A DNA stretch of 64,000 bases from assembly GCF_003334305.1 (NCBI RefSeq), contig NZ_QOWS01000002.1. One strand, given 5' to 3'. The stretch is from Escherichia coli (lineage in GTDB: Bacteria > Pseudomonadota > Gammaproteobacteria > Enterobacterales > Enterobacteriaceae). The position numbers are program-made. Of this stretch, positions 53,801-56,800 are shown piece by piece. The stretch's first letter is position 1. Every line of letters starts with the position of its first letter.

Positions 53801-56800
53801 GTCTTCGGCAGGGATCTCGAAATAGGTTGATTGTTCGGTTGCAAGGACAAAAGTACGAAAAAATTGTAGCGCTCTGTCATCATAAGTTAGCTGAAATTTT
53901 GATGTGCCTTTGTCGAATACGGCCTGTAAAACGTCATCTCGCTCGTGCAGGCGCAAATCAAATAATTCCATTCCCGCTTTGCCAAAACGGCGAGCAGGCG
54001 CGTAATCGCACAGCAGCTCAACAATATTATAGTGCCGTGGATCCTGGCATATAGCCCGATATATCATTTTAACCTGTTCTTCCGGACCTTCCAGAAGCTG
54101 GAAAAAATGAGAACCATTAAACAGTAAGATCCCTGTTACGTCAGACTGCATGTTCCTGCGATTTGCTATCGAAACCATTTCTTCGATTTTTTTGACAGGT
54201 TCGTCGTCACGTATATGGCTACGATAAATAAGGGTGGTAAGCATTAACAATCCAGGGTAATGGGTGAGGCGAGAGTAAGACGGTAACAGACATATCTTCT
54301 TGTGTCTTTCTTTTAATACCAAAACATAACCGTTTCTTTACATTGATAAAAAATGGAAAAAGTTGAACACTAGTTGGCGAAAAATCTTGTATAGATTGTC
54401 AGTTAAATGATGCAATATGTTTTATCATAACACATTGTTTTATATGCATTAGCACTAATTGCAAAAAATTAATTTATCATTCTGTACACATATTTCGTAC
54501 AAGTTTGCTATTGTTACCTCACTTAACATTGATTAACATTTTTAACAGAGGCGTAGCATGCATCAAAATTCAGTGACTTTAGATTCTGCGGGAGCAATCA
54601 CTCGTTACTTTGCAAAAGCTAACTTGCCTACTCAGCAGGAAACTCTCGGGGAAATTGTGACTGAGATTTTGAAAGATGGACGTAATCTGAGTCGAAAGTC
54701 GCTTTGTGCCAAACTTCTTTGCCGACTGGAACACGCGACTGGGGAAGAGGAACAGAAACATTATAATGCACTAATTGGGTTGCTTTTTGAATAATGCAAC
54801 AGCCTGATTATTTAACAGGTTAGCTATGAAGTCGTTATGAAGACATCTGATAATGAACGTATAAAATATGAAATTACTGGCCAGGCGGTGATCCAGATAC
54901 TGCGCATGAAGATAAATTTTTCATTGCAGACTCTTATTAAGCAATTACTCGTAATGAAATCGGCTGAGGAAGATGCTTTCCGACGCGATTTAATTGACAG
55001 CATAATTCGTGATTTTAGCAATAGTGATTCAGGAGGGCCAAACCGAAGAACAGCGACAGCTGACAATAAAAGTATGTTCAATGGTAAGAAAATAAACAGA
55101 ATACATTAAAATTTCATAAGTAAGATGAGAGGTTACCATGCTTGAAGATACTACAATTCATAATGCAATAACTGATAAAGCGTTAGCAAGTTACTTTCGC
55201 AGTTCGGGTAATTTGTTAGAAGAAGAGTCAGCAGTGTTAGGGCAGGCTGTCACCAATTTAATGCTTTCAGGCGATAATGTTAATAATAAAAATATTATCT
55301 TAAGTCTGATACACTCCCTGGAAACAACAAGTGATATTCTCAAAGCTGATGTGATTAGAAAAACACTGGAAATCGTGTTGCGATACACAGCTGATGATAT
55401 GTAACTTCTAATTATTAAGTATAAGTTTATAGAAAACTCATTCATCTTATTTTTGTCTGTCGCTTTAGACTATACACAGCATAATTTTATTGGGTTAATA
55501 TTTCTACGAGGCTGACATGAATAATTCAATCCCAGAGAGATTTATTTTTCAATGTGCTTTGTTTAAAAATCTCGAGAGGGAGGTGTTCATGACGCATGGG
55601 TATGTTGATAGTCATATTATTGATCAGGCTTTACGCTTGCGTTTAAAAGATGAAACCAGTGTGATTCTTTCTGATCTCTATCTGCAAATATTGCAGTACA
55701 TTGAAATGCATAAGACTACACTAACGGATATCATTATTAATGACAGGGAATCCGTGCTCTCTTAGAACTTGAGTAAGGTTTTAGAATAAACATCAGCTGT
55801 ATCACCATGCTGATGCAAAGTGAGCATTTCAGGCGTTATGCTTTCTTATTATGTCCGCAATATCAGGTGTCAAGAATGGAGAGTTCTCGCTCTCCATTCT
55901 TGACGCCTGATATCCCGCCTAACTTATTTTGTACTGCCTACATTATGCTCAATAATTAATGGGTTAGATCAAGATGGAGAAAATTTTATCTTCGGCGTGG
56001 ATATTTCTTATGCTCTCTACCATGCTCTCTGTAGATGCCAGCGCGAGCGAATGAATGGCATTTTCATGTATTAAACCCTTTGGCCGGGACAAGCAAATGC
56101 GCAATACACTCATACCCATCCTCGTTGCGATATGCTTGTTTATTACCGGTGTCGCTATTTTGAACATCCAGCTCTGGTATTCCGCAAAAGCAGAGTACCT
56201 GGCGGGAGCGAGATATGCCGCCAACAATATCAATCATATACTTGAAGAAGCGTCACAAGCGACTCAAACAGCGGTTAACATTGCCGGGAAGGAATGCAAC
56301 CTCGAGGAGCAATATCAGCTTGGCACTGAAGCAGCTCTGAAACCTCACCTGCGCACAATCATCATTCTCAAACAGGGAATAGTCTGGTGTACATCCCTGC
56401 CTGGGAATCGGGTCCTGTTGTCTCGTATTCCTGTTTTCCCGGACAGTAATTTACTGTTGGCTCCAGCAATCGACACCGTTAATAGATTACCTATCCTGCT
56501 CTATCAGAACCAATTTGCAGATACGCGCATTTTGGTTACGATAAGTGATCAACATATTCGCGGGGCGCTTAATGTACCCTTGAAAGGGGTAAGGTATGTA
56601 TTACGCGTGGCGGATGACATTATTGGACCAACGGGTGATGTGATGACGCTTAATGGACATTATCCCTATACCGAGAAGGTTCACTCCACAAAATATCATT
56701 TCACTATTATCTTTAACCCGCCGCCACTCTTTAGCTTCTACAGACTTATCGATAAAGGCTTTGGAATTTTAATATTTATTCTGTTAATCGCCTGCGCCGC

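What the first reader, a model, noticed from the sequence alone, without database searches (positions are those of the whole stretch)
54460..54557. Repeated motifs in the bluF-ycgZ divergent control region (candidate BluR operator)
The 235-bp divergent region contains two self-complementary hexamers, TGTACA and CGTACA, about 14 bp apart (around 54483-54502), and a tandem direct repeat TTAACATTGATTAACATT (54523-54540) immediately upstream of the ycgZ Shine-Dalgarno. MerR-family repressors bind dyad elements within the promoter spacer, so the GTACA dyads are candidate BluR contacts. The direct repeat lies in the 5' UTR and could affect translation or mRNA stability.
Basis: seen in the sequence. 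Interest (0 to 1): 0.3.

Follow-up and report, generated by a model that had tools for sequence, protein, structure and literature searches.

The report
Known BluR operator at ycgZ promoter
The paired GTACA motifs are the already published, experimentally mapped binding site of the blue-light-pathway repressor BluR in the E. coli ycgZ promoter, while the nearby TTAACATT repeat is an E. coli-specific stretch of the short mRNA leader with no sign of a function of its own.

Summary
The window carries the E. coli bluR-bluF / ycgZ-ymgA-ariR-ymgC locus. Both motifs are present, with small errors in the description. TGTACA lies at 54483-88 and CGTACA at 54496-54501, 13 bp apart. Only the first is palindromic; the dyad is TGTAC-N9-GTACA. 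The spacer is 313 bp, not 235.

The BluR reading is correct and already published. Tschowri et al. 2012 footprinted BluR on exactly these motifs, and point mutations abolished binding and derepressed ycgZ::lacZ. [quoted passage not shown] Here the pair (13-14 bp apart) recurs in 51 of 58 syntenic loci across Enterobacteriaceae.

The TTAACATT-GA-TTAACATT repeat occupies +2 to +19 of the 36-nt leader, with a third TTAACA at +21. It is not conserved outside E. coli and is polymorphic within E. coli. The leader RNA is unstructured with no Rfam match, and such repeats are common. I read it as lineage-specific leader sequence.

The conserved upstream TAGCAC...TGCAAAAA block is the published MarA box (Kettles 2019).

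One side observation seems undescribed: a perfect 14-bp-arm dyad (TTGTACAA x2) over the bluR promoter. A pair occurs in 56 of 58 species, suggesting BluR autoregulation.

The parts
54452..54466 (+). MarA box (marbox) GCACTAATTGCAAAA, forward orientation, centred about -62/-63
   Evidence: Matches the marbox consensus GCAHWWWWTGYYAAA quoted in PMC6900184. That paper shows MarA binding 62 bp upstream of the start and marbox-dependent sigma70 activation. The TAGCAC-N5-TGC(A/T)AAAA block is conserved in many genera.
54483..54501 (.). BluR operator: dyad TGTAC-N9-GTACA, also readable as direct GTACA-N8-GTACA. Half-sites are TGTACA 54483-88 (-39 to -34) and CGTACA 54496-54501 (-26 to -21).
   Evidence: Sequence. 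It is unique in the window. The published footprint, EMSA and lacZ mutants are in PMC3509220. A pair spaced 13-14 bp occurs in 51 of 58 syntenic loci (52 with any pair 10-25 bp apart), and both half-sites are about 90-99% conserved per column.
54485..54490 (+). -35 hexamer TACACA (inferred position)
   Evidence: Inferred from the published 18-bp spacer and the -10 position. It overlaps BluR half-site 1, as the paper states. The figure itself could not be viewed.
54506..54514 (+). Extended -10, TGcTATTGT, with C at -13-like position
   Evidence: The position fits the mapped start 36 nt upstream of the ATG and the 'extended -10' named in PMC6900184. The assignment to these bases is my inference.
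54521..54522 (+). ycgZ transcription start (+1), with an ambiguity of 1 nt
   Evidence: Primer extension places it 36 nt upstream of the start codon (PMC3509220). The marbox centre at -62 would give 54521.
54523..54540 (+). Direct repeat TTAACATT-GA-TTAACATT, at +2..+9 and +12..+19 of the leader
   Evidence: It is invariant in most E. coli alleles, but a TTCACATT variant exists. It is not conserved in other genera.
54542..54547 (+). Third, partial copy TTAACA, abutting the Shine-Dalgarno GAGG (54548-54551)
   Evidence: It aligns with the widely conserved TTT(T)ACAGGAG ribosome-binding block of other genera.
54558..54794 (+). ycgZ, first gene of ycgZ-ymgA-ariR-ymgC
   Evidence: ORF. NCBIfam YcgZ_fam scores 124 bits against a cut-off of 80. 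RefSeq annotation of an allelic locus agrees.
53033..54244 (-). bluF (ycgF), BLUF-EAL anti-repressor of BluR
   Evidence: ORF, with the 403-aa start taken from the RefSeq annotation. EAL-domain matches.
52097..52828 (-). bluR (ycgE), MerR-family repressor and MlrA paralogue
   Evidence: ORF. It matches the MlrA model at 268 bits, below the 417-bit equivalog cut-off, plus MerR-type N-terminal matches. Annotated as BluR.
52878..52915 (.). Side observation: perfect inverted repeat ATACTTTGTACAAT-N10-ATTGTACAAAGTAT over the bluR promoter. It spans the -10 TATATT (52894-89) and the start at 52882. A third TGTACA lies at 52862-67.
   Evidence: 0 expected by chance. A [GA]TACA pair occurs in 56 of 58 bluR upstream regions, against 3.3% of background windows.

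Best explanation
The interval is the core of the E. coli ycgZ-ymgA-ariR-ymgC promoter, whose parts are already mapped experimentally.

Shown in the literature:
- A dimer of the MerR-family, MlrA-paralogous repressor BluR binds the 19-bp dyad TGTAC-N9-GTACA. Its half-sites are 13 bp apart centre to centre.
- The site covers the -35 hexamer and the upstream part of the 18-bp spacer.
- BluF, activated by blue light and low temperature, binds BluR and strips it from this DNA.
- Upstream, MarA at about -62 and an UP half-site help RNA polymerase. Sigma-S is the main sigma factor.

Inferred: because of its position, BluR represses by keeping RNA polymerase off the promoter.

The TTAACATT repeat is the first two-thirds of the 36-nt ycgZ leader. 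My reading of it is inference from comparative data. Copy 1 includes the conserved start-site block CTTAA. The third, partial copy belongs to the conserved TTTACAGGAG ribosome-binding block. Copy 2 lies in a variable, indel-rich stretch. The perfect repeat is therefore an E. coli lineage coincidence in an A/U-rich, unstructured leader. At most it keeps the ribosome-binding site open, and it is not a separate regulatory element.
For: - Locus identity: the spacer is 100% identical to E. coli chromosomes and is present in 4917 of 5426 genomes. The genes are annotated bluR, bluF, ycgZ, ymgA, ariR and ymgC, with matching family results.
- BluR site: the DNase I footprint shows 'GTACA...GTACA overlapping TGTAC...GTACA'. 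Five point mutants lose EMSA binding and derepress ycgZ::lacZ to the bluR-knockout level. Binding covers the -35 and the spacer, the start is 36 nt upstream of the ATG, and the spacer is 18 bp (PMC3509220).
- Sequence: the dyad lies at 54483-54501 and is unique in 64 kb against 0.04 expected.
- Conservation: 51 of 58 syntenic loci keep a pair spaced 13-14 bp (48 at 13, 3 at 14; 52 have some pair 10-25 bp apart), while the flanks diverge.
- MarA box and UP half-site: PMC6900184.
- Repeat not conserved: Citrobacter has CTTAATATTCACCAGCATT at the same place.
- Repeat polymorphic: A54525C gives TTCACATT in strains with an intact ycgZ.
- Leader RNA: it folds no better than shuffles (z = +0.8) and has no Rfam match at E <= 1.
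- Background rate: similar 8-mer repeats occur 11 times in the window and in 4% of spacer shuffles.
Against: - I could not view the published figures, so placing the footprint, the -35 and the -10 on exact bases rests on the text plus my own counting.
- RcdA also footprints 36 nt somewhere in this spacer (PMC3535384). Degenerate RcdA-box-like sequences overlap the GTACA pair, so BluR may not be the only protein using it.
- For the repeat, 8/8 identity plus a third 6/6 copy is above mononucleotide-shuffle expectation for a 50-nt leader (p about 0.007).
- Five other lineages have different leader repeats that contain TAAC or CTTAA.
- Across 25 non-redundant leaders, 4-mer recurrence peaks at offsets 11, 12 and 23 (z 3.0-3.8). 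This hints at some phased feature that I cannot explain.
- No experiment has tested the leader.
Confidence: 0.88

Rival explanations
1. The TTAACA repeats are a DNA-level regulatory site downstream of the start. Read on the minus strand they are three TGTTAA hexamers spaced 10 and 9 bp apart. A tandem-binding response regulator of the OmpR/ArcA type could bind them at +2..+26 and block elongation or promoter escape.
For: Three exact hexamers lie on roughly one helical face. Leaders of several genera carry different direct repeats at offsets of 10-12 bp, and 4-mer recurrence peaks at 11-12 and 23 bp across 25 leaders.
Against: - The unit and its spacing are not conserved between genera.
- The ArcA consensus as I recall it (not tested here) needs 11-bp spacing, whereas this site has 10 and 9.
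- No paper found reports a regulator binding here.
- The first copy is polymorphic.
- A/T-rich promoter DNA has intrinsic periodicity of about 10-11 bp, and mononucleotide shuffles do not control for it.
Confidence: 0.05
2. The repeats act during early transcription or on the RNA. TAACAT at +3..+8 and +13..+18 resembles a -10 hexamer (T-12, A-11 and T-7 kept). It could cause sigma-dependent promoter-proximal pausing. Alternatively the A/U-rich repeated leader could act as a ribosome standby site, or as an S1 or sRNA binding site that tunes translation in the cold.
For: - The -10-like character can be read from the sequence.
- In Lelliottia the repeated unit is the -10 box itself, ATAACTTA, recurring 12 nt downstream.
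- The leader is unstructured, as expected for a standby or enhancer region.
- The operon is expressed mainly at low temperature (PMC5491885).
Against: - There is no conservation of the repeat as such.
- In vitro transcription gave one transcript of the expected size with both sigma factors (PMC6900184), though pausing was not assayed.
- Temperature control was attributed mainly to BluR.
- No sRNA partner is known from the papers found.
Confidence: 0.06
3. The GTACA pair is mainly the target of a different protein, with BluR secondary. Candidates are RcdA (TetR family, box TTGTnnACA) and MlrA.
For: RcdA SELEX and a 36-nt footprint fall in the ycgF-ycgZ spacer, and its boxes are said to be in tandem there. 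CTGTACACA (54482-90) matches the box at 8 of 9 positions. BluR and MlrA share the GTACA motif.
Against: - There is no exact RcdA box in the spacer.
- RcdA was reported to affect ycgF (bluF) expression, not ycgZ.
- Mutations in the half-sites phenocopy a bluR knockout.
- The pair co-occurs with bluR in syntenic loci.
Confidence: 0.03

Closest known systems
BluR (YcgE) operator of the E. coli ycgZ promoter (Tschowri, Lindenberg & Hengge 2012, Mol Microbiol 85:893; PMC3509220)
   Same: It is the same sequence at the same locus. The features match: GTACA...GTACA / TGTAC...GTACA, overlap with the -35 and the spacer, an 18-bp spacer, and a start 36 nt upstream of the ATG.
   Different: Nothing differs in the operator. 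The window allele differs from a K-12-like allele by one base at 54518, outside the operator.
MlrA box in the csgD promoter, AAAGTTGTACA(12N)TGCACAATTTT (Ogasawara 2010, as quoted in PMC3509220)
   Same: Both have a TGTACA-type half-site with an A/T-rich outer flank. The proteins are paralogues (49% identity), and BluR binds the csgD fragment weakly.
   Different: The hexamers are separated by 7 nt here (13 bp centre to centre) against 12 nt (18 bp) in the MlrA box. MlrA activates, whereas BluR only represses.
Canonical MerR-family operators (MerR, CueR, ZntR, SoxR; Brown et al. 2003 as cited in PMC3509220)
   Same: Both are roughly 19-20-bp dyads bound by a dimer inside a promoter with an over-long spacer. 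The regulator gene lies nearby. Hypersensitive sites indicate DNA bending.
   Different: Canonical sites are centred in a 19-20-bp spacer and switch from repression to activation on ligand binding. This site is shifted over the -35, the spacer is 18 bp, there is no ligand-driven activation, and relief comes from a protein anti-repressor (BluF). The published analogy for that is CarA-CarS.
MarA/SoxS/Rob marbox at PycgZ (Kettles et al. 2019; PMC6900184)
   Different: It is a separate element from the GTACA dyad. It is bound by a monomer, has an unusual forward orientation for a class I site, and activates sigma70 transcription only.

Membership tests
BluR operator (MlrA-like subgroup of MerR-family sites) | Two GTAC-core half-sites forming a dyad (TGTAC...GTACA) | tested here: met
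   TGTAC-N9-GTACA lies at 54483-54501. It is an exact, unique match against 0.04 expected.
BluR operator (MlrA-like subgroup of MerR-family sites) | Overlaps the -35 hexamer and spacer of the repressed promoter | tested here: met
   With +1 at 54521/2 (36 nt upstream of the ATG) the half-sites lie at -39..-34 and -26..-21. The text of PMC3509220 states the same. The base-level placement is my own count, because the figures were not viewable.
BluR operator (MlrA-like subgroup of MerR-family sites) | Cognate MerR-family repressor gene and its anti-repressor encoded alongside | tested here: met
   bluR is at 52097-52828 and bluF at 53033-54244. bluR and bluF were found by tblastn upstream of ycgZ in nearly all of the Enterobacteriaceae loci, 58 of which were usable for motif counting; both were absent from the Pantoea/Erwinia-type loci.
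BluR operator (MlrA-like subgroup of MerR-family sites) | Protected by purified BluR; half-site mutations abolish binding and repression | not testable with these tools
   Published: DNase I footprint, EMSA of five mutants, and single-copy ycgZ::lacZ fusions (PMC3509220).
BluR operator (MlrA-like subgroup of MerR-family sites) | Conserved in orthologous promoters | tested here: met
   Of 58 syntenic loci, 52 have a [GA]TACA pair 10-25 bp apart: 48 at 13 bp, 3 at 14 bp and 1 at 10 bp. The half-site columns are about 90-99% identical while the flanks vary.
MlrA box (csgD type) | Hexamers separated by 12 nt (AAAGTTGTACA-N12-TGCACAATTTT) | tested here: not met
   The separation here is 7 nt. It shares the half-site with the MlrA box but not the architecture.
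Canonical activator-type MerR operator | Dyad centred within a 19-20-bp -35/-10 spacer | tested here: not met
   The dyad centre is 54492 (about -30). The left arm covers the -35 and the published spacer is 18 bp. BluR is described as a repressor only.
Structured 5' UTR RNA element (riboswitch, thermometer or leader in Rfam) | Stable or covarying secondary structure, or a match to a curated family | tested here: not met
   The leader plus early coding region folds at -8.9 kcal/mol against -11 for shuffles (z = +0.8). There are no Rfam matches at E <= 1.
ArcA-type tandem direct-repeat site (considered for the minus-strand TGTTAA x3) | TGTTAA repeats 11 bp apart centre to centre (consensus recalled from memory, Park et al. 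2013) | tested here: not met
   The spacings are 10 and 9 bp. No ArcA binding data for this locus were found.
RcdA box | TTGTnnACA (PMC3535384) | tested here: not met
   There is no exact match in the spacer, only 8/9 matches overlapping the GTACA pair. The position of the published 36-nt RcdA footprint could not be read without the figure.

The most novel reading that the evidence does not exclude
The ycgZ operator may not be the only BluR-family site in the locus. The bluR promoter itself carries a perfect 14-bp-arm dyad (ATACTTTGTACAAT-N10-ATTGTACAAAGTAT, 52878-52915) over its -10 and start site. A TGTACA-type pair is kept at that position in 56 of 58 Enterobacteriaceae loci. The spacing falls into two classes: 13 bp as at ycgZ, or 18-20 bp. 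This would mean BluR, or its paralogue MlrA, represses bluR transcription. That would add a negative feedback loop to the blue-light/cold pathway, and it would imply that this MerR subgroup binds two half-site geometries. I found no description of this in the papers available. A weaker add-on is that the phased TAAC-containing repeats in ycgZ leaders of several genera form a second, unrecognised control site.
Probability: 0.4. Interest if true: 0.35.

Novelty: already known. Interest (0 to 1): 0.1.

Why it matters
The locus matters: it links blue light and cold, through BluF, BluR and the Ymg proteins, to the Rcs system, curli, biofilm formation and OmpF. The operator flagged here has been mapped and mutated since 2012, however, so the finding adds nothing new.

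This check adds three things. First, it gives comparative support for the published site across about 50 species. Second, it shows that the leader repeat is not conserved. Third, it offers one testable lead, a conserved operator-like dyad on the bluR promoter. If real, that dyad would make the circuit autoregulated, and it would help define how MlrA-like MerR proteins read half-sites at different spacings.

Tried and rejected
- Sigma-54 promoter for the conserved TAGCAC-N5-TGCA block: rejected, because the spacing is 2 nt too short and it has AG instead of GG. It then turned out to be the published marbox.
- RcdA box scan: no exact TTGTnnACA in the spacer.
- RNA element in the leader: no structure and no Rfam match.
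- The repeat finder on the spacer returned nothing at seed 6. The repeat was confirmed by pattern search instead.
- My first dyad pattern used N10 and found nothing. That was a counting error, corrected to N9.
- Looking for non-coli Escherichia alleles through divergent YcgZ proteins gave only E. coli strains with damaged loci. The genome scan returned no Escherichia, so the closest outgroup available was Citrobacter.
- Tschowri 2009 (Genes Dev) is not held, so I could not check whether bluR autoregulation was tested there.
- Searches for BluR autoregulation, or for ChIP, SELEX or DAP data on BluR, found nothing relevant.
- A promoter scan found only one weak consensus match, TTAACA-16-CAAAAT running into the coding region. 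That is below shuffle expectation and I disregarded it.
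Full report
**Identity of the region.** The 313-bp stretch 54245-54557 is 100% identical to E. coli chromosomes and is present in 4917 of 5426 complete E. coli genomes. RefSeq annotation of an allelic copy gives bluR, bluF (both leftward) and ycgZ-ymgA-ariR-ymgC (rightward). The window has the same ORFs:
- bluR at 52097-52828 on the minus strand. It matches the MlrA model at 268 bits, below the 417-bit equivalog cut-off, and has a MerR-type N-terminus.
- bluF at 53033-54244 on the minus strand.
- ycgZ at 54558-54794. It passes the YcgZ_fam cut-off.

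With the annotated start the spacer is 313 bp.

**The observation.**
- TGTACA lies at 54483-54488 and CGTACA at 54496-54501, 13 bp start to start.
- Only the first hexamer is a palindrome. The symmetric unit is TGTAC-N9-GTACA (54483-54501), which overlaps a direct repeat GTACA-N8-GTACA.
- This exact dyad occurs once in 64 kb against 0.04 expected. My first attempt used N10 and found nothing, which was a miscount.
- TTAACATT-GA-TTAACATT lies at 54523-54540.
- A third TTAACA lies at 54542-54547, next to the GAGG Shine-Dalgarno. The ATG is at 54558.

**What the GTACA pair is.** It is the published BluR operator. Tschowri, Lindenberg and Hengge (2012; PMC3509220) report the following:
- Primer extension placed the ycgZ start 36 nt upstream of the ATG, which is 54522 here (54521 if counted from the marbox position in Kettles 2019).
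- The -35/-10 spacer is 18 bp.
[quoted passage not shown] - Point mutations in either half-site reduced or abolished EMSA binding. [quoted passage not shown]
- Hypersensitive sites indicate bending.

On my count the half-sites lie at -39..-34 and -26..-21. The extended -10 is TGcTATTGT at 54506-54514, and the -35 is then TACACA at 54485-54490.

**Comparative support.** This part is new here but only confirmatory.
- A scan of one genome per species with a YcgZ profile returned 80 loci.
- tblastn found bluR and bluF upstream of ycgZ in nearly all of the Enterobacteriaceae loci, as in E. coli, but not in the Pantoea/Erwinia-type loci. Counting the window, 58 loci were usable for motif counts.
- In 52 of those 58, a [GA]TACA pair 10-25 bp apart lies upstream of ycgZ: 48 at 13 bp, 3 at 14 bp and 1 at 10 bp. 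Only 3.3% of background 130-nt windows contain any such pair.
- In a MAFFT alignment of 61 distinct upstream regions, the two half-sites and the TTT after the second are the most conserved columns apart from the ribosome-binding site, while the flanks vary.
- A centre-to-centre distance of 13 bp is, from my own knowledge, the geometry of CueR-type MerR operators. The MlrA box at csgD has 18 bp.

**Other known elements in the interval.** I noticed a conserved TAGCAC-N5-TGC(A/T)AAAAA block about 33 bp upstream of the operator in many genera. It is the MarA box described by Kettles et al. 2019 (PMC6900184):
- The sequence is GCACTAATTGCAAAA, at 54452-54466.
- It is centred 62 bp upstream of the start, in an unusual forward orientation.
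- It activates sigma70 but not sigma38 transcription.
- An UP-element half-site lies between it and the -35.

RcdA, a TetR-type regulator, also footprints 36 nt and 26 nt in this spacer (PMC3535384). The distal band includes TTGTATAGA (54388-54396). I could not place the proximal band without the figure. There is no exact RcdA box in the spacer.

**The direct repeat.** Given the mapped start, the copies lie at +2..+9 and +12..+19 of a 36-nt leader, with the partial third copy at +21..+26. Evidence on function:
1. *Conservation outside E. coli.* Citrobacter, the closest outgroup available (82-85% YcgZ identity), has a leader of about the same length with TTAATATT and CCAGCATT at the two positions. 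Enterobacter, Klebsiella, Lelliottia and others differ more. In the alignment, copy 1 overlaps the conserved CTTAA start-site block and the third copy overlaps the conserved TTT(T)ACAGGAG block. Copy 2 falls in low-information, indel-rich columns.
2. *Variation within E. coli.* From about 54470 to the ATG the region is invariant in the first three divergent alleles compared. Later samples show C54518T in a K-12-like strain and A54525C (TTCACATT) in strains with an intact ycgZ. No sampled allele varies in the GTACA motifs.
3. *RNA.* The leader plus early coding region folds at -8.9 kcal/mol against -11 for shuffles (z = +0.8). There is no Rfam match at E <= 1.
4. *Chance.* Exact 8-mers repeated at offset 8-12 occur at 11 places in the window, against about 5 hits in shuffles. 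They occur in 4% of dinucleotide shuffles of the spacer.

I conclude that the perfect repeat is an E. coli-lineage feature of an A/U-rich, unstructured leader, without evidence for a function of its own.

**A residual signal I cannot explain.**
- Seven of 61 leaders have a direct repeat beyond mononucleotide-shuffle expectation. The units differ but are related: TTAACATT in E. coli, (A)TAACTTA in Lelliottia, AGTTAACT in one gut isolate, TTAAATAAC in Citrobacter amalonaticus, and AACTTTA in Klebsiella oxytoca.
- Across 25 non-redundant leaders, 4-mer recurrence peaks at offsets 11, 12 and 23 (z 3.0-3.8).
- This may be phased A/T curvature, which mononucleotide shuffles do not control for. It may be -10-like elements that cause sigma-dependent pausing, or tandem protein sites.
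- I give these readings about 5% each. They are testable with leader mutants and pause assays.

**Side observation: the bluR promoter.**
- The bluR start is 54 nt upstream of its GTG, which is 52882 here. The -10, TATATT, lies at 52894-52889.
- Over it lies a perfect inverted repeat, ATACTTTGTACAAT-N10-ATTGTACAAAGTAT, at 52878-52915. It contains two TTGTACAA boxes 20 bp apart, a pattern not seen in any shuffle. A third TGTACA lies at 52862-67, so three of the window's eleven TGTACA fall within 48 bp.
- In 56 of 58 syntenic loci a [GA]TACA pair sits at the same distance from the bluR start codon. The spacing is 13 bp in the Enterobacter group and 18-20 bp in most others.
- The half-site TTGTAC is the same as at ycgZ.
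- No paper available to me mentions BluR autoregulation or this dyad. Tschowri 2009 could not be read.
- This is a reasonable candidate autoregulatory operator for BluR or MlrA. The different spacing is the main caveat.

**Verdict.**
- The BluR interpretation is correct and already established.
- The leader repeat is most likely ordinary.
- Novelty: already known. Interest: low.

Noticed in passing
window 52862-52915 (bluR promoter, minus strand): A perfect 14-bp-arm inverted repeat, ATACTTTGTACAAT-N10-ATTGTACAAAGTAT, covers the bluR -10, spacer and start site, and a third TGTACA lies in the 5' UTR. A TGTACA-type pair is conserved upstream of bluR in 56 of 58 species, at 13 or 18-20 bp spacing. 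It is a candidate BluR/MlrA autoregulatory operator, and I found no description of it in the papers available.
   Followed up: partly
window 54450-54468: A conserved TAGCAC-N5-TGC(A/T)AAAAA block lies about 33 bp upstream of the BluR operator in many genera. It turned out to be the published MarA box of PycgZ (Kettles 2019). Its conservation in genera from Citrobacter to Pantoea has not, to my knowledge, been pointed out. The Enterobacter cloacae group appears to lack it.
   Followed up: yes
window 54509-54526, compared with L001-L068 around 3950-3990: Most genera have a strong TGTATAAC-TTAA (-10 plus sigma-S-like TAA) box 13-15 nt after the second GTACA. In E. coli the aligned bases are TACCTCAC, which is not -10-like, and the mapped start lies at their end. 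E. coli therefore seems to use TATTGT 6 bp upstream. This shifts the operator from 'half-site 2 over the -35' to 'half-site 1 over the -35'. Start sites in the other genera are unknown.
   Followed up: partly
L052, L054, L062-L065, L067, L069-L073 (Pantoea, Erwinia and similar), about 3930-3975: ycgZ-like genes with no bluR or bluF within 4 kb still carry a TGTACA pair upstream, but about 20-21 bp apart, together with the marbox-like TAGCACTTTTTGCAA. This suggests control by an MlrA-like protein encoded elsewhere, and a second spacing class for this family.
   Followed up: partly
ycgZ leaders of L013, L021, L030, L025, L051, L066 (about 3950-4000) and window 54510-54557: Different lineages have different exact direct repeats (7-9 nt, at offsets 10-23) in the ycgZ leader, all containing TAAC or CTTAA. 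Across 25 non-redundant leaders, 4-mer recurrence peaks at offsets 11, 12 and 23. The cause is unknown; it could be curvature, pause elements, tandem sites or chance.
   Followed up: partly
window 54525 and 54518; L084, L085, L088, L090: Two polymorphisms segregate in E. coli inside the promoter and leader. A54525C breaks the first repeat copy (TTCACATT) in strains such as B-1109. C54518T, at about -4, occurs in a K-12-like strain. No sampled variant touches the GTACA half-sites.
   Followed up: partly
window 54388-54396: TTGTATAGA, followed by TTGTCAG, is the sequence that Shimada et al. 2012 give as the spacer part of the promoter-distal RcdA footprint. It lies between the bluF and ycgZ promoters. 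The position of the 36-nt proximal RcdA footprint could not be determined from the text.
   Followed up: no
L083, L085, L086 (E. coli strains): Several E. coli genomes carry split or frameshifted bluF and/or bluR genes while keeping the ycgZ promoter intact. The blue-light input has apparently been lost repeatedly.
   Followed up: no
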